From the NCBI RefSeq assembly GCF_045110935.1, contig NZ_JBJGWJ010000009.1: DNA of 64,000 bases; one strand, written 5' to 3'. Each line of letters opens with the position of its first letter. Within the stretch, counting starts at the first letter, position 1. The position numbers and the translations under genes were made by a program. Below, piece after piece: positions 48,596 to 60,340 of the stretch. Under the pieces are notes generated by a model, which was not told the origin of the DNA, did no database searches, and saw nothing but the letters and a program-made list of their open reading frames with translations. The DNA is from Capnocytophaga stomatis. GTDB taxonomy: Bacteria > Bacteroidota > Bacteroidia > Flavobacteriales > Flavobacteriaceae.

Positions 48596-48976
48596 ATGAT
48601 GAAAATAGAAAAATCGGACAAACATACAGCCTACGATGATATAAAATTATTGCTCAATCAAGCGAGGAATAATGTTGTGGTTCAGGTAAATAGCATTTTA
48701 CTGAAAACCTATTGGCAAATCGGCAAAATCATCGTTACAGACGAACAAAACAATGCCGACCGAGCCGAATACGGCACAAACCTTCTGAAAAACTTGTCCA
48801 AACAACTCACAAAAGAATTTGGCAAGGGTTTTTCAAAATCTAATCTATTCAATATGAGGAGGTTTTATCTGTTATACCCAAAATTCCAGACACTGTCTGG
48901 AATTTTGAACTGGTCTCATTACGGCGAACTTTTTTCATTACAGACGACCACAAAAAGGGACGGAAGCCAAATATAG
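48596..48976 (+). pseudogene. 5' fragment of a DUF1016/YhcG-type PDDEXK nuclease gene (truncated after about 126 codons)
   Basis: The N-terminal domain resembles YhcG-like proteins (…AYDDIKLLLNQARNNVVVQVNSILLKTYWQIGKIIV…AEYGTNLLKNLSKQLTKEFGKGFSKSNLFNMRRFY…NWSHYGELFSL). The frame then ends. Full-length family members are about 340 aa or more with a C-terminal PDDEXK domain. Confidence 0.6.
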
Positions 48977-50825: not shown

Positions 50826-51827
50826 ATGAGCATACGTAACATTTTTAGTAATCAGCTTTCTGCTGTCATTGAGTGGAAAAATCCACAAGCGAACGTGATT
50901 TGGTGGAAATATCCGTCAAAACGCGATGAAATTATCAACGCTTCTAAACTCATTGTCGCTCCCTCGCAGGGCTGTGCCTTGGTGTATGAAGGGTCGTTGG
51001 TGGAAATCATTGAAGATGAGGGGATTTACAACCTAAAAACCGACAATCATCCGTTCATTACCACGCTTGTCAATCTGCGTCAGAATTTTGAAAGTGAGCA
51101 TAAACTCAAAATTTATTTTTTCCGTAAGGCACAGATTCTGAGTCAGCGGTGGGGAACGCCCAACCCCATTAAATTCATCGACAGCACCTATAAAATTCCT
51201 GTGGAATTGGGGCTAAACGGTAATTTTTCGTATAAAATCGCCAATCCGAAGTATTTTTATACCGAAATTATTGGCGAAACGGACGAATTTCTGTCCGAAA
51301 CAATGAGCGAAACCATCGCCGAACGTATTCCACAGCTTATCGCCCAAATCATTCACGAAAAGAAATATTCCTACATTGAAATAGACGGAAAAATTCACGA
51401 CATCGCCCGTGATATATCCTTGAAAATCAATGATGAATATCAAAAATTAGGACTGGAGCTTACCGATTTTCGCATCGTAGGAACGCAATTTGATGAGGCT
51501 ACCCAAGAGCGTATCGGTCGTGTTGCCGACGTGGCTGCCGATGTACAAGCCGCCAAAGAAGCGGGGCTGGATTATGTGGAGCTGGAAAAACTTCGTGCTT
51601 TACGCGATGCGGCTCGTAATGAGGGCGGACTGGCTGGGGCTGGACTGCAATTTGGGGTGGGAATGGAAATCGGCAAAAAGTTCAACGAACAAACCGACAC
51701 CATTCTTGCCACAGGCAATGCCGATGCCAGCGAAAAACTTCGCAAACTCAAAATCCTACTTGATGAAAACATCATCACGGCAGAAGATTTTGAGCTTAAA
51801 AAACAAGAGATTTTAAGGAAGATGTAG
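50826..51827 (+). CDS. SPFH/band-7 domain protein with a SHOCT-like C-terminal tail
   Basis: 333 aa. The N-terminus is …LSAVIEWKNPQANVIWWKYPSKRDEIINASKLIV… and the C-terminus is …ITAEDFELKKQEILRKM. Confidence 0.65.
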   Translation: MSIRNIFSNQLSAVIEWKNPQANVIWWKYPSKRDEIINASKLIVAPSQGCALVYEGSLVEIIEDEGIYNLKTDNHPFITTLVNLRQNFESEHKLKIYFFRKAQILSQRWGTPNPIKFIDSTYKIPVELGLNGNFSYKIANPKYFYTEIIGETDEFLSETMSETIAERIPQLIAQIIHEKKYSYIEIDGKIHDIARDISLKINDEYQKLGLELTDFRIVGTQFDEATQERIGRVADVAADVQAAKEAGLDYVELEKLRALRDAARNEGGLAGAGLQFGVGMEIGKKFNEQTDTILATGNADASEKLRKLKILLDENIITAEDFELKKQEILRKM

Positions 51828-51838
51828 GTTAATTTTTT

Positions 51839-51916
51839 GTCAGGCTGAGCAAAGTCGCAAAAGCGAGTATGTGCATCGAAGCCCAATTACAAGGCTTCGA
51901 CTTCGCTCAGCCTGAC
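51839..51916. other. Large GC-rich nested hairpin (19-bp imperfect inverted repeat with an inner 8-bp hairpin)
   Basis: GTCAGGCTGAGCAAAGTCG …40 nt… CGACTTCGCTCAGCCTGAC has one mismatch. The loop contains TCGAAGCC…GGCTTCGA. The element sits 12 nt after the SPFH stop. Confidence 0.5.
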
Positions 51917-51985
51917 AGACAGCTTTGATTTTCAAACAAACTCAAACCATTTTTAAACCATTTTCAAACTAAATATTATAGAAAG

Positions 51986-52234
51986 ATGAAATACATTATC
52001 GGAATCATATTTACGCTAATAGTTTTAGCCATTACGACCTATTTTTTAGCCGATTTATGGGAATACGACACCCTAATCACGCCCGAACAACTTAAAAAAA
52101 GTGCCATTACCGTGATGATAGTGGGCGTAGTCTCGGTTTTGCTGTTGATTTTCGTGCCGTTTTTCTTTAAAAACAACGCCAAAGGCTATGATGAAAATCA
52201 GGGCGGGGTTGTGCAGCCGAAGAAAAAGCAGTAG
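51986..52234 (+). CDS. Hypothetical small two-TM membrane protein (82 aa)
   Basis: Open frame with two hydrophobic helices. A terminator follows it. Confidence 0.4.
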   Translation: MKYIIGIIFTLIVLAITTYFLADLWEYDTLITPEQLKKSAITVMIVGVVSVLLLIFVPFFFKNNAKGYDENQGGVVQPKKKQ

Positions 52235-52310
52235 AAAGAGAAATATTGTCTCTTTAACAGGACATAGTTATGTTATTAAAGAGACTTTAAACCAAGTAAA
52301 ACGATTTAAT

Positions 52311-52348
52311 GGAGCAACATCAAATTTTGAGGTGTTGCTCCTTTTTTT
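52311..52348 (+). terminator. Rho-independent terminator
   Basis: A 9-bp stem (GGAGCAACA/TGTTGCTCC) followed by TTTTTTTGATTTTT. Confidence 0.55.
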
Positions 52349-52475
52349 GATTTTTCTCTGCTTGAATAAGCTGTGTTTGGTAATGTTTTCTAAAAAAAGC
52401 TTTGTAGGAATAAAAAAGTTGGAAGAGGGTAATTAAAGTGAAAAATTTCGGTTTTTACTCTATTTTAAATAAGCA

Positions 52476-54002
52476 CTAAGGTTTTATAAGCATATTAACT
52501 TTATTCCAATGTCTTTTCAATTGATTTTTTATTTTATTGTTAATCATTTTAGAAGAAGCTTTATTAACATAAGTCAAAAAATTTCCATAGTTATAACTAT
52601 CATAAGCTTTAAAAGATTTAGTATTTTCATCCCACAGTCTTTTTCTGGTTCTTTTTGCTCCTCTGTATGTAAATTTCTTTAAGATTCTGCGTTTAAAAAT
52701 TTCTTTTTTATGTATTTTAGAGAAATATTTAGCTCTACGAATATGCCTTTTCAACTTCCTGTAATATCCTGAAATACTTGAGTTTTTTAATAAAACAGAA
52801 TTACCATTAAACTCAAAACCTAAGTAAATAAAATTTTTATTCCAATTAGTTAAATTTTTAAATACCTGACCACATTTTAAAAAATTATCTTCTCTAACAA
52901 ATTCAAAAATCTGAGTTTTAGAATCTTGTATTTCTAATTTGTATTCGGAAATTTGATTTTGTATCAATTGTATAATATTATTCCTATTTCCTTTTGGTAA
53001 GATTATCACAATATCATCAGAATATCTCTTATAAAAACCATTTTGCTTAGTCACATATTCGTTAATGATTTTATCAAAATCTATCAAGTATATGTTTGCC
53101 AAAGTAGAACTTATTGGAGAGCCTTGAGGAATACCAAAATCTCGTTTTATAGTAGAACCATCTTTTTGTTTTATTGTTTTATTAGGTTTGATTAATTTAT
53201 GTTTAATTTTTAAAAAATCGGCTTTGTTACAAAATGCAATTGCATTTTGATTTCTCATAAATTTTAATTTGGCAACCTTCCGCTTTTTAACTTCAAGCTT
53301 TTCTCCTTTAGCATTTGTCTTTTGAGTTAAAATATTATCTTTAAACTCTTCAAAAAGGTCAACTATATCTATGTAGCTAAATCTGGTGATATTTTTAAAA
53401 ATATTGAAGTGGTCACTTGGTAGTCTTTCAACATCCAAAATTTTGCCCCACTTTTCTAATAGAATTTTATGATTTAAATTATCAAAATAACTTGTAATAT
53501 CAAATGCAATTACGTCAAATTCGGAGTGAGGAAAATTGTAAATTATTTCAAATACATCATTTGCGAAATCAATATTACACTTACACGGTGAATTGGATGC
53601 TGAGGATATTGGTATACTTCTATATGCTAAAACAACATCATTTAGATTGTTGTTTTTTATAAAGTATTCATATTTCAAAGATAATTTTTGAGAATAATAA
53701 CTGTATATAAGAGAATCTAAATGCGAGGCATAAAACAACTCTCGTTTCTTTTTGTCGGCAACCCTAATAGGATTCCCCTTTTCATTCAGAGAAATACAAT
53801 TACCACAACAAGGACAATATTTTTTTCTAAATTTTCTGACTAAGGATGTTTTATGGATGAAAGGTAAGAAAGAATGTTGGGAAATTTTTTCCTCATTACG
53901 AATATAAGCCTCAATTTTATTTCTGTCTGAAACACTTATTGGAGTATCTATATGAGGATATTTCTTTGTTTTGAACCAATCTTTTTTCTTTTTTTGAATC
54001 AT
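52476..54002 (-). CDS. Stand-alone reverse transcriptase (retron/Abi/DRT-like, about 508 aa from the first ATG)
   Basis: RT motifs are R-x8-D (KKKRELFYASHLDSLIY), motif A (AFDITSYFDNLNH), motif B' (GIPQGSPISSTLANIYL), motif C (YSDDIVI) and motif E (LGFEF). A long insert separates motifs A and B'. The C-terminal tail is basic. There is no endonuclease or maturase domain. The ORF track starts at a TTG at 54035; the first ATG is at 54002. Confidence 0.8.
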   Translation of the reverse strand: MIQKKKKDWFKTKKYPHIDTPISVSDRNKIEAYIRNEEKISQHSFLPFIHKTSLVRKFRKKYCPCCGNCISLNEKGNPIRVADKKKRELFYASHLDSLIYSYYSQKLSLKYEYFIKNNNLNDVVLAYRSIPISSASNSPCKCNIDFANDVFEIIYNFPHSEFDVIAFDITSYFDNLNHKILLEKWGKILDVERLPSDHFNIFKNITRFSYIDIVDLFEEFKDNILTQKTNAKGEKLEVKKRKVAKLKFMRNQNAIAFCNKADFLKIKHKLIKPNKTIKQKDGSTIKRDFGIPQGSPISSTLANIYLIDFDKIINEYVTKQNGFYKRYSDDIVIILPKGNRNNIIQLIQNQISEYKLEIQDSKTQIFEFVREDNFLKCGQVFKNLTNWNKNFIYLGFEFNGNSVLLKNSSISGYYRKLKRHIRRAKYFSKIHKKEIFKRRILKKFTYRGAKRTRKRLWDENTKSFKAYDSYNYGNFLTYVNKASSKMINNKIKNQLKRHWNKVNMLIKP

Positions 54003-54019
54003 AATACCATAAAAAAAAA

Positions 54020-54365
54020 GAGTAGTGGAGCCCAATGCGAAGCAGTGCCTTTTAGAAATAAATTTCCTGAATTATGTATGCTACACCGACATTAAAATGC
54101 CGCTCCGACTCAGTATGGGAACCAAAATATTGTTATTATATTTGTATTTCTATTTCTATTCTAACAGTATGAACAAATACAAATACTCTAACCTAGAAGT
54201 CCTCACAGAAGTTATTATACCTCTGTTTGAGCTAGTTACATCTCTTGGATTGACAAATAATCTCTCCTTGATTTGCATATTTGAAATACTCCCTCCCCTA
54301 TAGTTTTTCTTTCGAGCATATAGGGCTCTTAACCATAAAACACATAATTCGGCTCTCCACTACTC
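54020..54365 (-). ncRNA. Candidate RT-associated structured ncRNA (retron msr/msd-like or DRT template RNA) bounded by inverted repeats
   Basis: Inverted repeats GAGTAGTGGAGCC (54020-54032) and GGCTCTCCACTACTC (54351-54365) match at 13 of 15 positions. They bracket 318 nt of non-coding sequence immediately upstream of the RT ATG. The region is GC-richer than the surrounding DNA. Internal stems include an 11-bp stem (54139-54149 / 54175-54185). Confidence 0.35.
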
Positions 54366-54507
54366 AATATAAGTTTATCGCCTACAAAATTACAAAAAAA
54401 TCCATTTTCTCATAAACTTTTCGTTCCTTTCTCACGCTACTAATTAAATTTAGGATTCCAAAACCATTCAAAACTTGATACCTTTGCAAAAAAATAACTA
54501 ATCGAAA

Positions 54508-55050
54508 ATGAATCTCCATACGATTTTTACGGAAAACTTTTCCTTCGGAAAGGAAATCGTTATCCCAAGAGGAGCGTTTTTAAAAACGCCCGATACGAAA
54601 GATACGCACATTTATCTTGTGAAAGAAGGGAGTTTGAAAATCGGATTTTTTACTGAAAATGAAGAGAAAATACTAAGGTTTGGGTACGAGAATGATGTAA
54701 TCACGGCATTGGATTCTTTTATTATGGAGCAGAAATCCAAATTGTATATTCAGGCAATCAAAAAGTGTCGTTTGGCGGTGGTTTCCAAATCGGAATTTAT
54801 GGCATTTGCACAAAAATCTTCTGAAAACTTGTGGATTTATACCAAAATTTTAGAAAAACTACTTGTTGACCAATTGGAACGCGAACAAGATTTGCTCTTA
54901 CCCTCGCCCAGAGAACGCTACCAGCGAATTTTGAAACGCAACCCCCAACTTTTTCAGCAAATTCCGCACAGGCACATCGCCGTGTATTTGGGAATGACCG
55001 AAGAGACGCTTTCCAGACTCAAAAAAACATTGACGCCAATCAAGATTTAG
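54508..55050 (+). CDS. Crp/Fnr-family transcriptional regulator
   Basis: 180 aa with a cNMP-binding-like domain and a C-terminal HTH (…HRHIAVYLGMTEETLSRLKK). Confidence 0.7.
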   Translation: MNLHTIFTENFSFGKEIVIPRGAFLKTPDTKDTHIYLVKEGSLKIGFFTENEEKILRFGYENDVITALDSFIMEQKSKLYIQAIKKCRLAVVSKSEFMAFAQKSSENLWIYTKILEKLLVDQLEREQDLLLPSPRERYQRILKRNPQLFQQIPHRHIAVYLGMTEETLSRLKKTLTPIKI

Positions 55051-55060
55051 CACCTCCATT

Positions 55061-55630
55061 TTGCTGACCTTTGCCCCAAAAAAGATGGACAGAAAACAAT
55101 TGTTAGACACGCTTACCCAAATAACGCTGGAAAATAAAACCTTTGCAGAAGCACTGCTACTAAAATCCGAAATAGAACTCAGCAATAGCCCCAGTGATGA
55201 TAGTTGGAGTATTTTGGAATGTATCGAACACCTGAATTTGTACGGAAATTTTTATCTGCCCGAAATAGCTTCGTGTATAGCAAAAGCCGATAAAAGCAAT
55301 TGTAATCTGTTCAAAAGCGGATTTTTAGGCAATTATTTTGTGAAACTTATTCAGCCCAAACCTCGACTCAACAAAATGAAAACCGCTGCTAAAATGAATC
55401 CCAAAGGGCGTAGGCTCACAAAAAATTGTTTGGAGGTTTTTATCCGTCAGCAAAATCAACTCCTTGATTTACTACAAAAAGCCCACACTACGGATTTGAC
55501 TCAACTAAAAACCAAAATTTCCATTTCCAGATTCCTCCGACTTCGCTTGGGTGATACTTTGCAATTTATGGTTTACCACAATCAGCGACATATAGAGCAG
55601 GTGCGGAGTATAATGACTTCAAAGCTATAG
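55061..55630 (+). CDS. DinB/YfiT-like putative metal-dependent four-helix-bundle protein
   Basis: 189 aa with spaced His residues (IEHLNLY…, MVYHNQRHIEQV), as in the DinB_2 family. Only the pattern supports this call. Confidence 0.45.
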   Translation: MLTFAPKKMDRKQLLDTLTQITLENKTFAEALLLKSEIELSNSPSDDSWSILECIEHLNLYGNFYLPEIASCIAKADKSNCNLFKSGFLGNYFVKLIQPKPRLNKMKTAAKMNPKGRRLTKNCLEVFIRQQNQLLDLLQKAHTTDLTQLKTKISISRFLRLRLGDTLQFMVYHNQRHIEQVRSIMTSKL

Positions 55631-57595: not shown

Positions 57596-58378
57596 TCAAA
57601 AATCTTTTTTCTTTGCTTTACGATTGATGAAAAACAACAGCCCCATAATCCAAGTCAGAAGCATTGCCATTGAAGCCCAAAGCCCTAATTTTGAACCGAA
57701 AAAACTCTTGAAAATAGCCCCCGTGTAACCCATAAGTGCCGAAATATCCAACTTTAAAAGAATCAGTATCCTTGATAAATCAATCGGGTTGAAGAATGTA
57801 GCTATTAGCGAATATCTTTCAAGCGGATATTCCTGAAAAATAAGCAACGAAATCAGAAAAATACCATCGTAAATCACTGCCATAAAAAGCCATAAAAGAA
57901 TTGAAAAACTAAATCCTTTTATTTTATTTTCATTGTGCAGAGCTATCAAATATGAAAAGCCAACGAAGATAAAATTCAGGAAAATCCCCGTGATTATCAG
58001 CATCAAAAAGTTAAAAATTTCTCCCGAAAGCAAAACACCATATAACAAAAACGGTATTCCCATTCCGAAAAGCAAACTAAGACTTAAAGACAATGCAATC
58101 CCAATGTATTGCCCTACGAAAAGCGTGGTTCGCCTTAGTGGTTGTGCCAATAAAAGCTCAATGAACTCTCGTGAATTGTAGTAGTACATCACTCCGAATA
58201 TCGTAGCAATAAGCGGAATGAGAATAGTTACAATATTCATAAAAGTAATGATAGATTTGGCAACATCATTACTTAAAAAAAGTAAAATGCTACTAAGCAA
58301 GAGATAAAATCCTAAGTAAAAATACGACCAACTGCTACGCATCAGGTCAAAAAATGTATATCGAATAATCTTAATCAT
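57596..58378 (-). CDS. nosY: ABC-2 type permease NosY
   Basis: 260 aa with six TM helices. It overlaps nosF by 8 nt, in nos-cluster context. Confidence 0.8.
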   Translation of the reverse strand: MIKIIRYTFFDLMRSSWSYFYLGFYLLLSSILLFLSNDVAKSIITFMNIVTILIPLIATIFGVMYYYNSREFIELLLAQPLRRTTLFVGQYIGIALSLSLSLLFGMGIPFLLYGVLLSGEIFNFLMLIITGIFLNFIFVGFSYLIALHNENKIKGFSFSILLWLFMAVIYDGIFLISLLIFQEYPLERYSLIATFFNPIDLSRILILLKLDISALMGYTGAIFKSFFGSKLGLWASMAMLLTWIMGLLFFINRKAKKKDF

Positions 58379-59081
58379 ACGCTTGTTCTTTAAGTAATTG
58401 AGCTATGGCTTCCTGAAAATCTGTTTTTTGGGTTTTGTTGATGAGTTCGGTAATTGTTCCTCTGAAATAAATATTTCCTTCAAGAATAAAAAGTACCTCA
58501 TCGGAAAGTTCTTCTATGAAACTCAAAATGTGTGAAGTCATCAAAATGGTTTTGCCTTTCTGCTTTTCTTTTATAATCAATTTTTTGAGTTCCAGCGTGG
58601 CGATGGGGTCTAATCCAGAAGTAGGTTCGTCAAGTACAATACACGGAGTATCAGCCATAAAGGTAAGCACGATGTTTACCTTCTGTTTTGTTCCGCCGGA
58701 GAGATTTCCTAACTTTTTTTCCAGATGTTTTTCCAAATTGAACACCTCGATTAGCTCTTTATCATTGCAATTTTCGCCTTTTAGTTGCTTGATGAGCTTA
58801 ATGAGTTCTTTAACTTTCAGATTATTCGGAAAGTTCGCAATTTGAGGTAGATATGCTATTTGTTGGCGATAATCCCACTTATTTTTTATGGTTTTTCCTT
58901 GAAATTTAATATCGCCATCGGTAGGGATTACCATTCCGAGAAGGCTTTTTATCAAGGTTGTTTTCCCTGAACCATTGGGACCTAATATGGCAAAGATTCC
59001 GTTGCCTTCTATGGCGAAATCAATGCCTTTTAGTACGTGCAATTTGTCAAATTTTTTATGTACGTTGCTAAATTCTATCAT
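58371..59081 (-). CDS. nosF: ABC transporter ATP-binding protein NosF
   Basis: 236 aa with Walker A (GPNGSGKT), an ABC signature (LSGGTKQK) and Walker B (ILDEPTSGLD). Confidence 0.85.
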   Translation of the reverse strand: MIEFSNVHKKFDKLHVLKGIDFAIEGNGIFAILGPNGSGKTTLIKSLLGMVIPTDGDIKFQGKTIKNKWDYRQQIAYLPQIANFPNNLKVKELIKLIKQLKGENCNDKELIEVFNLEKHLEKKLGNLSGGTKQKVNIVLTFMADTPCIVLDEPTSGLDPIATLELKKLIIKEKQKGKTILMTSHILSFIEELSDEVLFILEGNIYFRGTITELINKTQKTDFQEAIAQLLKEQAYD

Positions 59082-59095
59082 AGTATATATTCACT

Positions 59096-60340
59096 TTATT
59101 TCTTGATTGGATATGGACGCATCAAAGGCGACGGATCTATTAAGTTTTCGGGGGTGAAAGACGGAGCTACTTTTTCCGAAAAGTTGATAATATCAATAAA
59201 AAGACTTCGTAGTAACACAACACTTTCAGGAGTTTTGTTGGCAATGTATGAAAACAGCTTCACGGGGCGGAAAGGCACATCACCGATGCCGTTTTTATCT
59301 AAATCGTAGCCCGTATAATCGCTCCAATAATTATTTTCAAACTTGTTATCGTGAACTTTATTGCTGTACGAAACATCAAAAGTGTTGTTTTCAAAATTAT
59401 TATGGAAAAAATTGTTCGTATAACACGCCCCACGTATGCGGATTCCCCATCCGTTTTCCGAAAATGTGTTTTCTTCGTAATCAATTCGCGTACAGCCCTC
59501 TCCGTTAATGCCAACGGTGTTCTGATGAAAGGTATTTCCGATGATTTTTGAATCGTAAATTTCTTTCAGAAGCAATCCGTAAGAGGATTTTCCCCAGTTT
59601 TTCTGGAAAATATTTTCTTTCATTTCAATGAACTTGGAAAACATCACCGCAACTCCTGCCCCATTGGCACGAAATTCATTTTTGTAATAAATGTTATTAT
59701 TCGAGAACATAAAATGCAAGCCATAACGAAGATTGTTATAACTTTTATTGCCTTTGATGGTGGATTCGGACACAAATTCAAAATAAATACCGTCACGCGA
59801 CTTTGACACATCATTATTTTCAATGGTTACACGATTGCAATACCATAAATGAATGGCATTTCCGGAATTGTACTCCTCTTTTGCTCGCCCAACGACTTGA
59901 TTTTGCTTTACAATGCCATCGTTGGACTTTTCTAAGAATATTCCGTAGTAAATATCCTCAAAGGTATTGTCCTCAATGATGAAATTATTGCTTTTTACAA
60001 GCCTGATTGCTGCATAATCCTTCGTGAAACTTTCTCCAACACCTTTAAAATGAAATCCTTTTATGACAATGTCAGAAGTTTTGGCAACAAGTATTTCTCC
60101 TTTTCGCTCTCCGTCAATAATTGGGCGATTTTTTCCTAAAATAACCAGTGGCTTATCAATGGTTAAATCGTGTACTTTATAAGTTCCCTTTTCAACAAGA
60201 ATAGTGTCATTGGGCTGAGCCATTTCAACAGCTTGTTTTAAGGTTTTTACTTGACAATTTTGGCAAACGGTAATCGTGTTTGCTTTGACAAAAAAGCCAA
60301 TTAACAGAAAGTGATATAAAAGTAATTTTTTTAGCATCAA
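59096..60340 (-). CDS. nosD: Periplasmic copper-processing beta-helix protein NosD
   Basis: 414 aa with a signal peptide. Parallel beta-helix repeats recur with Asn/Gly ladders (…NNFIIEDNTFEDIYYGIFLEKSNDGIVKQN…). It lies directly upstream of nosF. Confidence 0.85.
   Translation of the reverse strand: MMLKKLLLYHFLLIGFFVKANTITVCQNCQVKTLKQAVEMAQPNDTILVEKGTYKVHDLTIDKPLVILGKNRPIIDGERKGEILVAKTSDIVIKGFHFKGVGESFTKDYAAIRLVKSNNFIIEDNTFEDIYYGIFLEKSNDGIVKQNQVVGRAKEEYNSGNAIHLWYCNRVTIENNDVSKSRDGIYFEFVSESTIKGNKSYNNLRYGLHFMFSNNNIYYKNEFRANGAGVAVMFSKFIEMKENIFQKNWGKSSYGLLLKEIYDSKIIGNTFHQNTVGINGEGCTRIDYEENTFSENGWGIRIRGACYTNNFFHNNFENNTFDVSYSNKVHDNKFENNYWSDYTGYDLDKNGIGDVPFRPVKLFSYIANKTPESVVLLRSLFIDIINFSEKVAPSFTPENLIDPSPLMRPYPIKK

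What the first reader, a model, noticed from the sequence alone, without database searches (positions are those of the whole stretch)
52476..54365. Stand-alone reverse transcriptase with a retron-like inverted-repeat-bounded non-coding region immediately upstream
The RT (all core motifs present, YSDD catalytic variant, no maturase/endonuclease, basic C-terminal extension) is not followed by an effector gene.

The 318 nt directly 5' of its ATG are non-coding and GC-richer than the flanking DNA. They are bracketed by 13/15-nt inverted repeats (54020-54032 and 54351-54365). The proximal repeat abuts the RT start, exactly the a1/a2 geometry of retron msr-msd loci.

Internal stems such as the 11-bp stem at 54139/54175 could be msd- or DRT-template hairpins. 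The protein is longer than typical retron RTs and has a large insert between motifs A and B'. It may therefore be a single-gene defence RT (DRT/Abi-like) that uses its own ncRNA.
Basis: partly seen in the sequence, partly recalled or inferred. Interest (0 to 1): 0.85.

Follow-up and report, generated by a model that had tools for sequence, protein, structure and literature searches.

The report
DRT2 defence reverse transcriptase with hidden gene
This is a type 2 defence-associated reverse transcriptase (DRT2) cassette in Capnocytophaga stomatis whose upstream non-coding RNA carries a scrambled, stop-free "neo" gene; the system type is known, but this copy shows that a divergent Bacteroidota branch keeps the same trick with its own promoter type and jump signal.

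Summary
A 508-aa reverse transcriptase (RT; 52476-54002, minus strand; YSDD) follows a structured non-coding region closed by an inverted repeat. It is not a retron.

The RT is a DRT2/UG2 enzyme. It scores E=1.5e-140 against PADLOC Drt2. Its best solved relative is Klebsiella DRT2 (9c0i), by sequence (E=3e-55) and by fold (TM 0.81).

The ~350-nt ncRNA is conserved upstream of homologous RTs.

A 159-nt segment (54288-54130) lies between two UAUUU(C/U) copies. Concatenated and read antisense, it gives one stop-free 53-codon frame. The repeat junction assembles a Bacteroidota promoter, TTTG-N20-TATATTTG, followed by an ATG.

With boundaries taken from homologous alignment columns, 19 of 23 relatives show periods of 135-162 nt. 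All 19 periods are multiples of three and stop-free.

The full signature is present in 28 of 54 loci, against 7 of 2160 shuffles.

Proteobacterial and Desulfobulbaceae relatives instead rebuild sigma-70 promoters.

Most likely mechanism (inferred): rolling-circle reverse transcription that synthesises a toxic neo gene on infection.

Verdict: a new member of a known kind, with clade-specific features not described in the literature I could search.

The parts
52409..54399 (-). Self-contained DRT2 cassette (promoter box, ncRNA, RT gene, about 67 nt of 3' tail)
   Evidence: This block is 87.5% identical over 2011 nt to loci L081, L083 and L084, which encode an RT 88% identical to this one. The flanks on both sides are unrelated.
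52476..54002 (-). DRT2 (UG2) reverse transcriptase gene, 508 aa, YSDD active site
   Evidence: PADLOC Drt2 E=1.5e-140. Pfam finds RVT_1 only. Klebsiella DRT2 9c0i matches at phmmer E=3e-55. The AF2 model (pLDDT 74.9) has 9c0i_A as its best hit, E=9.4e-33, TM 0.81.
54385..54392 (-). Candidate -7 box (TAATTTTG) of the promoter driving the ncRNA and RT; predicted start of transcription near 54380
   Evidence: It is an exact match to the Bacteroidota consensus TAHHTTTG (consensus from PMC6847099). L081 keeps it as TACTTTTG. It lies inside the conserved cassette. This is an inference and was not tested.
54011..54366 (-). Structured ncRNA (about 355 nt, from the 5' closing helix to the 3' U-run)
   Evidence: It is conserved upstream of homologous RTs that share 54-88% protein identity. 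The consensus has 41 pairs in 9 helices. 93.1% of cells are paired against 82.4% in shuffles (0/500 shuffles reach it) and 34-46% when the partners are slid. 28 pairs carry compensatory changes. No Rfam family matches the region.
54351..54365 (-).
   Evidence: It pairs with 54020-54033. The window reads GAGUAGUGGAG/CUCCACUACUC, while homologues read GAGCAGUUGAAG/CUUCACUGCUC. 10 of the 13 pairs of H1-H3 (helices 1-3 in the table) show changes on both sides.
54020..54033 (-).
54340..54350 (-). 5' strand of the long-range helices H4/H5
   Evidence: It pairs with 54069-54079. 8 of 11 pairs show changes on both sides.
54069..54079 (-). 3' strand of the long-range helices H4/H5
54297..54324 (-). 5' hairpin H6, just upstream of the template (by position, the analogue of the Klebsiella '5' handle')
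   Evidence: All 6 pairs show compensatory changes and 97% of cells are paired. The analogy to the Klebsiella handle is an inference from PMC12039810.
54130..54288 (-). Predicted template region of the ncRNA, 159 nt (53 codons)
   Evidence: It lies between the two UAUUU copies. It is the least conserved and most AT-rich part of the ncRNA. The same homologous columns give periods of 135-162 nt in relatives. In 19 of 23 the period is a multiple of three.
54283..54288 (-). 5' copy of the jump microhomology (UAUUUC), analogue of ACA-1
   Evidence: The same short sequence recurs at 54124-54129. The motif changes in both copies together between clades: TATTTC, TATTTTAC, TATACC, CTATACC.
54124..54129 (-). 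3' copy of the jump microhomology (UAUUUU), analogue of ACA-2, abutting the conserved 3' scaffold
54130..54288 (+). One neo repeat unit on the strand opposite the ncRNA: MNKYKYSNLEVLTEVIIPLFELVTSLGLTNNLSLICIFEILLLYLYFYFYSNS
   Evidence: The concatemer has exactly one stop-free frame. 2.5% of dinucleotide shuffles of the unit are circularly stop-free in at least one frame. The protein is hydrophobic: GRAVY 0.78, with a 19-aa stretch at Kyte-Doolittle 1.98.
54137..54144 (+). -7 box TATATTTG of the promoter that is completed only in the concatemer
   Evidence: It matches TAHHTTTG. The homologous box is kept in 17 of 19 relatives with a stop-free unit.
54272..54275 (+). -33 element TTTG, at the far end of the unit; after concatenation it lies 20 nt upstream of the -7 box
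   Evidence: The TTG-N20-TAnnTTT(G/A) arrangement across the junction is found in 17 of 19 relatives. Among full-signature solutions, where 19-21 nt were allowed, the spacer of the highest-microhomology solution is 20 nt in 25 of 28 loci, and an N20 solution is listed for all 28.
54169..54171 (+). In-frame ATG of neo, about 20 nt downstream of the predicted start of transcription (~54149), with A at -3
   Evidence: The A at -3 and the lack of a Shine-Dalgarno sequence fit Bacteroidota translation initiation (PMC6847099). In the unpermuted genome this ATG opens only a 44-aa ORF, 54169-54303.
54087..54102 (-). 3' scaffold hairpin H8, whose loop varies in length between relatives
   Evidence: 7 pairs, of which 4 show compensatory changes. 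Some clades carry loop insertions.
54054..54067 (-). 3' scaffold hairpin H10
   Evidence: Single-sequence folds of 20 of 23 homologues put a hairpin at this position (not L013, L016 or L010), with different stem sequences (AUUAGG/CUAAU, UUUGGG/CCAAA, AACCA/UGGUU). This was judged by eye and not scored.

Best explanation
The locus is a DRT2 (UG2, class 2 defence-associated RT) anti-phage cassette of Capnocytophaga stomatis. Steps 1, 2 and 5 rest on sequence and comparative evidence obtained here. Steps 3, 4, 6 and 7 are inferred by homology with Klebsiella DRT2.

1. One promoter transcribes a ~355-nt ncRNA and the RT gene.
2. The ncRNA folds into a scaffold closed by long-range 5'/3' helices, and the RT binds it.
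3. The RT copies the 159-nt template, 54130 up to 54288 in window coordinates.
4. At the 5' UAUUUC copy, the nascent cDNA end re-anneals to the identical motif just 3' of the template. Synthesis continues, giving head-to-tail concatemers (rolling-circle reverse transcription).
5. The concatemer sequence itself follows from the genome. Once it is double-stranded, each junction joins TTTG to TATATTTG with a 20-nt spacer. This is a Bacteroidota sigma-A promoter that the genome lacks. An ATG and an endless 53-codon hydrophobic repeat ORF (neo) follow it.
6. [quoted passage not shown]
7. Neo expression arrests the cell, an abortive-infection outcome.
For: RT identity:
- PADLOC Drt2 E=1.5e-140; the next family, UG17, scores 1.6e-23.
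- Klebsiella DRT2 9c0i matches at E=3e-55 by sequence.
- By fold it is the top hit at TM 0.81, E=9.4e-33; the next hit, DRT9, scores 5e-11.

ncRNA:
- It is conserved and covarying in 23 loci.

Hidden gene:
- The window's unit is 159 nt with a single circular stop-free antisense frame.
- Boundaries taken from homologous alignment columns give periods of 135, 150, 153, 156, 159 and 162 nt in 19 of 23 relatives. All are multiples of three and each has exactly one open frame.
- The window differs from its nearest relative by an in-frame 6-nt tandem duplication.

Promoter:
- TTG-N20-TAnnTTT(G/A) spans the junction in 17 of 19 relatives.
- The full signature is present in 28 of 54 loci against 7 of 2160 shuffles. 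It requires a -7 box, an ATG, a TTG at 19-21 nt, microhomology of at least 4 nt, a period divisible by three and a circular open frame. The spacer of the highest-microhomology solution is 20 nt in 25 of the 28, and an N20 solution is listed for all 28.
- The motif and its geometry match the published Bacteroidota consensus of -33 TTTG and -7 TAnnTTTG at -12 to -5 (PMC6847099, PMC9723704).
- The host is Bacteroidota: NosD in the window is 100% identical to C. stomatis NosD.

Control:
- An analogous search using ACA...ACA boundaries on Klebsiella-like proteobacterial loci recovers the published architecture: period 120 or 114, TTGACA-N17-TAnnnT (PMC12039810).
- Desulfobulbaceae members of the window's own clade rebuild TTGCGC-N17-TATGCT/TATTCT. 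The promoter type therefore tracks the host.
Against: - Nothing here is experimental. No cDNA, transcript or phenotype data exist for this clade.
- The window's open frame alone is only modestly unlikely: 2.5% of shuffles are circularly stop-free, and 1.5% reach a 288-nt antisense open span.
- Neo sequences evolve fast. Most codon differences are non-synonymous, and codon periodicity is weak: pairwise difference 0.50/0.42/0.53 at positions 1/2/3. Selection appears to act on openness and hydrophobicity rather than on sequence.
- One subclade (Cyclobacteriaceae; L008, L009, L011, L012) does not fit the homologous boundary. It gives a period of 148, and its template limits remain unresolved.
- I found no covarying basal stem joining the template ends, unlike SL2 of Klebsiella.
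- The candidate 3' pseudoknot has no covariation support.
- Tang et al. noted that Neo annotation was difficult in divergent DRT2 clades and raised the possibility of alternative mechanisms (bioRxiv 10.1101/2024.05.08.593200, section 9).
Confidence: 0.8

Rival explanations
1. It is a DRT2-family RT and ncRNA that makes repetitive cDNA, but the cDNA itself is the effector (for example a decoy, a sponge or a nucleic-acid signal). On this view the open frame and promoter are not used to make a Neo protein in this clade.
For: Tang et al. left alternative mechanisms open for divergent clades (10.1101/2024.05.08.593200, section 9). The Neo sequence is poorly conserved and mostly non-synonymous between relatives. 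Other class 2 DRTs (DRT9, DRT10) act through non-coding DNA products (PMC12483538, PMC12632851).
Against: Non-coding cDNA would not need periods that are always multiples of three across at least five different lengths. It would not need one frame kept open in 19 of 23 relatives. It would not need a junction-spanning promoter with a fixed 20-nt spacer plus an ATG. Nor would the promoter type switch with host phylum.
Confidence: 0.1
2. It is a retron: the inverted repeats are a1/a2, the region between them is msr-msd, and the RT makes branched msDNA.
For: An inverted repeat brackets a structured non-coding region directly upstream of an RT on the same strand. This looks superficially like retron geometry.
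Against: Retron RT models score about 1e-12, against 1e-140 for Drt2. Retron RT structures are remote in the fold search, at about 1e-7. No effector gene is present. The region holds a 159-nt permuted ORF and a split promoter, which no retron has. The ncRNA is about 355 nt, much longer than a typical msr-msd (the typical length is from my own knowledge).
Confidence: 0.01
3. It is another class 2 UG/DRT system (DRT9- or DRT10-like) that uses the ncRNA for protein-primed homopolymer or short tandem-repeat synthesis.
For: These systems are also single RT genes with an upstream ncRNA. UG17 is the second-best PADLOC family. DRT9 is the second-best fold match.
Against: The margins are very large: 467 against 81 bits, and TM 0.81 against 0.41. 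The template features match DRT2, not short-repeat templates.
Confidence: 0.03
4. It is a decaying or inactive copy that no longer functions.
For: The window lacks a small GNRA hairpin present in most relatives. The RT gene is much more AT-rich than the genome. One relative, L002, has a frameshifted neo.
Against: The RT keeps every column that is invariant in the 24-sequence alignment, including YSDD. All covarying helices can form in the window. The open frame, both promoter boxes, the ATG and the microhomology are intact. The missing hairpin is also absent from L010, L015 and L019, which otherwise have intact signatures.
Confidence: 0.05

Closest known systems
Klebsiella pneumoniae DRT2 (Tang et al. 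2024, bioRxiv 10.1101/2024.05.08.593200; Wilkinson et al. 2024, PMC12039810; PDB 9c0i)
   Same: The RT is a homologue (31% identity, TM 0.81). Both are single-gene cassettes with the ncRNA upstream on the same strand. Both have a template flanked by a short direct repeat. In both, the unit length is a multiple of three, the antisense frame is endless and stop-free, the promoter halves sit in the wrong order in the genome and are joined across the repeat junction, a start codon lies just downstream, and the repeat protein is hydrophobic.
   Different: - The RT is 508 aa rather than 425. The region aligned to Kpn residues 190-226 is about 32 aa longer (Lys-rich, residues ~218-286), and a further segment of about 16 aa lies near residues 60-80.
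- The ncRNA is about 355 nt rather than 280. Its 5' end pairs with its 3' end in long-range helices, instead of the 28-nt 5' handle hairpin alone (PMC12039810).
- The jump motif is UAUUU(C) rather than ACA.
- The unit is 159 nt here (135-162 in the clade) rather than 111-129.
- The junction promoter is TTTG-N20-TAnnTTTG (Bacteroidota sigma-A) rather than TTGACA-N17-TATAAT.
- There is no Shine-Dalgarno sequence.
- The Neo sequence is unrelated.
Other class 2 UG/DRT systems with ncRNA (DRT9: PMC12483538; DRT10: PMC12632851)
   Same: Each is a stand-alone defence RT that reverse transcribes part of its own upstream ncRNA.
   Different: Those systems make protein-primed homopolymers or short tandem repeats that do not code for protein. 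Their RTs are only distantly related to this one.
Retrons
   Same: The RT is preceded by a structured ncRNA whose ends are closed by an inverted repeat, and the system serves in anti-phage defence.
   Different: The RT belongs to a different clade. There is no effector gene. The predicted product is a linear concatemer that becomes a gene, not a branched msDNA.
Telomerase (a conceptual analogue, noted by Wilkinson et al., PMC12039810)
   Same: Both add repeats from an internal RNA template, re-aligning the product on a short repeated motif next to the template.
   Different: The unit here is 159 nt rather than 4-8 nt. The product is a transcribed, translated gene. The lineages are unrelated.

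Membership tests
DRT2 (UG2) | The RT belongs to the UG2/DRT2 clade | tested here: met
   PADLOC Drt2 models score 1.5e-140 and 4.6e-96; the next family scores 1.6e-23. 9c0i matches at E=3e-55. By fold it scores TM 0.81, E=9.4e-33, which is 22 orders of magnitude ahead of the next hit.
DRT2 (UG2) | A single RT gene with no fused or neighbouring effector | tested here: met
   Pfam finds RVT_1 only. The conserved cassette ends about 67 nt after the stop codon. The neighbours are unrelated housekeeping or unknown genes.
DRT2 (UG2) | A conserved structured ncRNA directly upstream on the same strand | tested here: met
   (conservation). (41 pairs, 93% of cells paired, 28 compensatory pairs, 0/500 shuffles reach the observed values).
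DRT2 (UG2) | A template flanked by a short direct repeat that allows the template jump (ACA-1/ACA-2 in Klebsiella) | tested here: met
   A direct repeat is present at the homologous positions, but its sequence is UAUUU(C), not ACA. The repeat changes in both copies together between clades. That the jump actually occurs is inferred.
DRT2 (UG2) | Repeat unit length divisible by three, with one stop-free frame in the reverse-complement concatemer | tested here: met
   The window's unit is 159 nt with one open frame. 19 of 23 relatives satisfy the test at the same alignment columns.
DRT2 (UG2) | Promoter halves out of order in the genome and reconstituted across the repeat junction, with a start codon downstream | tested here: met
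   TTTG-N20-TATATTTG followed by an ATG. The signature is present in 28 of 54 loci against 7 of 2160 shuffles. The promoter is of the host's type, not sigma-70. A sigma-70 scan of the region is at chance level.
DRT2 (UG2) | A pseudoknotted 3' scaffold that grips the RT thumb | tested here: inconclusive
   The candidate ACCCAG/UUGGG pairing is 82% compatible but shows no covariation. The crossing long-range helices H4/H5 are well supported.
DRT2 (UG2) | RT-dependent concatemeric cDNA, phage-triggered second-strand synthesis, a toxic Neo protein and phage defence | not testable with these tools
   These require experiments.
Retron | The RT belongs to the retron clade | tested here: not met
   Retron RT models score about 1e-12 over the core only. 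Retron structures score about 1e-7, TM 0.3-0.4.
Retron | An msr-msd bounded by a1/a2 repeats, plus an accessory effector gene | tested here: not met
   An inverted repeat is present. There is no effector gene. The enclosed region is a 159-nt coding template plus a DRT2-type scaffold.
Group II intron | Intron RNA domains and a maturase/X domain | tested here: not met
   No Rfam intron family matches in 51500-55500, even at E<=10. Pfam finds RVT_1 only.
Diversity-generating retroelement | A template repeat / variable repeat pair | tested here: not met
   No second copy of any part of 54003-54507 longer than 34 nt occurs in the 64-kb window. The DGR RT is remote in the fold search, at 9e-7.
DRT9 / DRT10 (UG28 / UG17) | The RT belongs to that clade | tested here: not met
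   UG17 scores 81 bits against 467 for Drt2. DRT9 structures score TM 0.41.

The most novel reading that the evidence does not exclude
The window represents a distinct Bacteroidota subtype of DRT2. On this reading, the divergent DRT2 clades in which Neo could not be annotated do build a neo gene, but with re-tuned parts.
- The jump motif is UAUUUC-type rather than ACA.
- The unit is larger, at 45-54 codons.
- The ncRNA is closed by 5'/3' helices.
- The junction promoter has co-evolved with the host's sigma factor: TTTG-N20-TAnnTTTG in Bacteroidota, and sigma-70-type in Desulfobulbaceae and Proteobacteria.

A corollary is that this cassette should synthesise cDNA but fail to express Neo in E. 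coli.

A bolder side reading is that this Neo is a chain of membrane-spanning segments, since each repeat has a 19-aa stretch at Kyte-Doolittle 1.98. That would contrast with the soluble helical solenoid proposed for Klebsiella Neo.
Probability: 0.65. Interest if true: 0.55.

Novelty: new member of a known kind. Interest (0 to 1): 0.45.

Why it matters
DRT2 is the only known system in which a cell writes a new gene by reverse transcription. Experimental work has so far concentrated on Klebsiella-like proteobacterial homologues. The discoverers reported that Neo was hard to annotate in divergent clades.

This locus and its relatives give a concrete, testable neo prediction for a large Bacteroidota clade; more than 2500 related proteins were retrieved. 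The split promoter has been re-invented in the host's own promoter dialect. That is strong comparative evidence that junction-promoter reconstitution is the selected function. It also gives practical guidance: host-matched promoters are needed when these systems are tested in another species. Finally, it flags that gene callers already annotate the unpermuted fragment of neo as a hypothetical protein.

Tried and rejected
- Rfam scan of 51500-55500 at E<=10. Nothing matched in the ncRNA, and only chance hits appeared elsewhere.
- Sigma-70 promoter and terminator scan. Results were at chance level, as expected for a Bacteroidota host.
- Retron, group II intron, DGR and DRT9/10 readings. All were rejected.
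- First automatic searches for the jump repeat by longest exact match near loose anchors. These picked spurious repeats in many loci, including a tie at period 130 in the window itself. I replaced them with boundaries taken from homologous alignment columns and with a promoter-anchored full-signature scan that has a shuffle control.
- Search for a basal stem joining the template ends, as an SL2 analogue. The linker 5' of the template is purine-rich but too variable, so I did not pursue it.
- Candidate pseudoknot ACCCAG/UUGGG. It is compatible but has no covariation.
- Template boundaries in the Cyclobacteriaceae subclade. I found no consistent solution.
- Codon-position test for protein-level selection. 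The signal was weak.
- A covariance model of the whole ncRNA was not built, because the alignment exceeds the 400-column limit.
- A multi-repeat Neo structure prediction was not attempted, because a concatemer is not a contiguous window sequence.
Full report
**Observation**

The minus strand carries an ORF that ends at 52476. The ORF listing starts it at a TTG at 54035. All homologues begin at the position of ATG 54002 (MIQKKKKDWFK...), which gives 508 aa.

The protein has FDI at residue 167, GIPQGSPIS at 290 and YSDD at 327. Its C-terminal 110 residues are strongly basic, with 32 K+R against 4 D+E. Pfam finds only RVT_1.

The inverted repeat is real. 54020-54030 and 54355-54365 are 11/11 complementary. 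A second perfect 9-nt pair, 54069-54077 with 54342-54350, lies just inside them.

The non-coding region is GC-richer than its neighbours: 35.5% against 26% for the RT gene and 27% for the spacer. The excess sits in the two scaffold parts (41-42%), not in the middle part (28%).

**What the RT is**

PADLOC's two Drt2 models match at E=1.5e-140 and 4.6e-96 over the whole protein. The next family, UG17, scores 1.6e-23, and retron RT models score about 1e-12 over the catalytic core only.

Among solved structures the only strong sequence match is the Klebsiella pneumoniae DRT2 RT (9c0i and related entries), at E=3e-55. It aligns in two blocks, query 8-217 and 287-498. The region between the blocks is about 32 residues longer in the query.

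An AlphaFold2 model built on 24 homologues (pLDDT 74.9) has 9c0i_A as its best PDB match. That match scores E=9.4e-33 with TM 0.81 normalised to the target. DRT9 (5e-11), group II intron RTs, retron RTs (~1e-7) and a DGR RT (9e-7) follow far behind.

The window comes from Capnocytophaga stomatis or a very close relative. Its NosD protein (59096-60340) is 100% identical to the NCBI C. stomatis NosD.

**The ncRNA**

I collected loci encoding relatives of the RT: 80 genome loci and 8 metagenome loci. The region upstream of the RT is conserved in relatives that share only 54-88% protein identity.

RNAalifold on 23 sequences predicts 41 pairs. Counting on that structure gives the following:
- 93.1% of cells are paired, against 82.4% in column shuffles (0 of 500 shuffles reach it).
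- When the 3' partners are slid by 1-3 columns, only 34-46% of cells are paired.
- 28 pairs have changes on both sides.

The window reads GAGUAGUGGAG/CUCCACUACUC, while most relatives read GAGCAGUUGAAG/CUUCACUGCUC. The second repeat forms helices H4/H5.

Other elements:
- A hairpin (H6, 54324-54297) sits just 5' of the variable middle part. All six of its pairs are compensated.
- Two further hairpins, H8 and H10, lie in the 3' part.
- The window lacks a small GNRA hairpin found in most relatives. Three other relatives with otherwise intact signatures (L010, L015, L019) also lack it.

No Rfam family matches the region.

Between the window and loci encoding an RT 88% identical to this one, homology runs from 54399 to 52409 and stops on both sides. 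The mobile unit is therefore a 2.0-kb cassette of promoter, ncRNA and RT.

**The hidden gene**

In Klebsiella DRT2 the central part of the ncRNA is copied again and again. The RT jumps between two ACA motifs. The concatemer, read antisense to the ncRNA, carries a promoter assembled across the junction and a stop-free ORF called neo (PMC12039810; bioRxiv 10.1101/2024.05.08.593200).

In the window, the strand opposite the ncRNA has a 288-nt stop-free span, 54013-54300. Only 75 of 5000 shuffles of the intergenic region reach that length.

The variable middle part is bounded by the same short sequence on both sides: UAUUUC at 54288-54283 and UAUUUU at 54129-54124. The two copies are 159 nt apart, which is 53 codons. 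The reverse-complement concatemer has exactly one open frame.

Using the same alignment columns as boundaries in all 23 aligned relatives gives this result:
- 19 have periods of 135, 150, 153, 156, 159 or 162 nt.
- Every one of these is a multiple of three.
- Every one has exactly one open frame.

The window's extra 6 nt relative to its nearest relative is an in-frame tandem duplication, TATTTC twice at 54145-54156.

The boundary motif differs between clades but changes in both copies together: TATTTC, TATTTTAC, TATACC, CTATACC. This is what a template-jump homology would predict.

**The promoter**

Read in the neo sense, the genome shows TATATTTG (54137-54144) first and TTTG (54272-54275) last. 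In the concatemer they become TTTG-N20-TATATTTG.

This matches the Bacteroidota sigma-A consensus, -33 TTTG and -7 TAnnTTTG at -12 to -5 (PMC6847099, PMC9723704). It places the start of transcription near 54149.

An in-frame ATG follows at 54169 with A at -3. No Shine-Dalgarno sequence is present, as is usual in this phylum (PMC6847099).

In the unpermuted genome the -33 position reads GTAT, and the ATG opens only a 44-codon ORF.

The TTG-N20-TAnnTTT(G/A) arrangement spans the junction in 17 of the 19 relatives with a stop-free unit.

I then ran a scan that demanded all of the following together:
- a -7 box;
- a nearby ATG;
- a TTG placed 19-21 nt upstream of the box after permutation;
- at least 4 nt of microhomology at the junction;
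- a period divisible by three;
- a circular open frame.

It found a solution in 28 of 54 loci of the clade, against 7 of 2160 dinucleotide shuffles. The spacer of the highest-microhomology solution is 20 nt in 25 of the 28, and an N20 solution is listed for all 28.

As a positive control, I applied an analogous search with ACA...ACA boundaries to Klebsiella-like proteobacterial loci from the same search. It recovered the published design: period 120 or 114 and TTGACA-N17-TAnnnT.

Two Desulfobulbaceae members of the window's own clade (43% RT identity) rebuild TTGCGC-N17-TATGCT/TATTCT. The promoter dialect therefore follows the host, which argues that junction-promoter reconstitution is itself the selected function.

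**Neo protein**

The predicted unit is MNKYKYSNLEVLTEVIIPLFELVTSLGLTNNLSLICIFEILLLYLYFYFYSNS. It is hydrophobic, with GRAVY 0.78 and a 19-residue stretch at Kyte-Doolittle 1.98.

Neo sequences diverge quickly. Most codon differences between relatives are non-synonymous. The second codon position is the most conserved, with pairwise difference 0.42 against 0.50 and 0.53. Selection seems to preserve openness and hydrophobic character rather than sequence, much as reported for Klebsiella Neo (PMC12039810).

**Mechanism proposed**

Shown here: the RT family, the conserved covarying scaffold, the direct repeat, the period and the frame. Also shown: the split promoter and the ATG, and that these features are conserved.

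Inferred from Klebsiella DRT2: RNP formation, priming, rolling-circle reverse transcription with a jump between the UAUUU copies, and phage-triggered second-strand synthesis. Also inferred: transcription from the junction promoter, Neo translation and growth arrest.

I put this at about 0.8.

**Weak points**

- Four relatives from one subclade (Cyclobacteriaceae) give a period of 148 at the homologous columns. Their antisense ORF continues through the 5' hairpin. Periods of 210 and 216 work for two of them but not convincingly for the others.
- One Nanopore-derived MAG has a frameshifted unit.
- I found no covarying stem joining the template ends.
- The candidate 3' pseudoknot, ACCCAG 54120-54115 with UUGGG 54036-54032, is compatible but unsupported by covariation.
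- The 5' end of the ncRNA is uncertain. A perfect TAATTTTG box lies at 54392-54385. In many relatives, however, a similar box abuts helix H1.

**Comparison and novelty**

By every defining feature I could test, this is a DRT2 system, and PADLOC's Drt2 model already covers its RT. It differs from the characterised Klebsiella system in these respects:
- a larger RT;
- a longer ncRNA closed by 5'/3' helices;
- a different jump motif;
- a longer unit;
- a Bacteroidota-type junction promoter.

In the papers I could search, Neo annotation in divergent DRT2 clades was described as difficult and alternative mechanisms were left open (10.1101/2024.05.08.593200, section 9). I found no description of Bacteroidota DRT2 neo genes.

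I therefore file it as a new member of a known kind, with a clade-level comparative result of moderate interest.

Noticed in passing
L086:1796-1963 (minus strand of that locus): A called 55-aa 'gene' inside the ncRNA of a homologous locus is the unpermuted neo-sense ORF (MKYSIAKLILTVIILLGQLMTSDTSETNSVIPCISEIPSPQ...). Gene callers are already annotating fragments of hidden neo genes as hypothetical proteins.
   Followed up: partly
L086-L088, downstream of the RT: In these metagenome loci the DRT2 cassette sits next to an N6_N4 methyltransferase and a ResIII helicase (type III restriction-modification-like), which is a defence-island context. The window itself has no such neighbours.
   Followed up: no
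L008, L009, L011, L012 (Cyclobacteriaceae): The template boundary of this subclade does not fit the rule that works elsewhere; it gives a period of 148. The antisense ORF runs on through the 5' hairpin. Periods of 210 and 216 are open in two of the loci. A longer template that includes the hairpin is possible.
   Followed up: partly
L034-L039, L047: Two microhomologies occur in swapped order at the two template ends: CTATACC-AATTTC at the 5' end and CAATTTC-TATACC at the 3' end. They give alternative periods 12 nt apart (141/153 in L034). Only the longer period gives the 20-nt promoter spacing.
   Followed up: partly
L005, L006: Their junction -7 box is TATATTGT. This matches the TAnnTTGY variant motif (SM5) described in Flavobacterium psychrophilum rather than TAnnTTTG, still with a TTG 20 nt upstream (PMC9723704).
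   Followed up: no
window 52476-54002 compared with the whole window: The RT gene is 26% GC against 35% for the window, which is consistent with recent horizontal acquisition of the cassette.
   Followed up: no
window 54145-54156 (+): An in-frame 6-nt tandem duplication (TATTTC twice, giving the YFYFY run) accounts for the 159-nt unit, compared with 153 nt in the closest relative.
   Followed up: yes
window 48596-48976 (+): This 126-aa ORF matches only the N-terminal domain of DUF1016 (YhcG-like nucleases). It is probably a truncated remnant, which suggests a variable region upstream of the cassette.
   Followed up: no
window 52308-52348: A strong GC-rich hairpin followed by a T-run scored as a chance Rfam hit to plastid psbA 3' UTR elements. 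It is most simply the terminator of the + strand ORF 51986-52234, and it lies outside the DRT2 cassette.
   Followed up: no
window 57596-60340 (-): A NosD gene (identified) is followed by two ORFs that look like an ABC ATPase (NosF-like) and a membrane permease (NosY-like). The last two names are my own reading of the translations and were not tested.
   Followed up: partly
L002: The neo unit of this Prolixibacteraceae MAG is frameshifted and has stops. The MAG's name suggests a long-read assembly, so indel errors are as likely an explanation as real decay.
   Followed up: partly
window 53999-54010 (-): A four-codon upstream ORF (ATG GTA TTA TGA) overlaps the RT start codon by ATGA. It is not conserved in the closest relative.
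   Followed up: no
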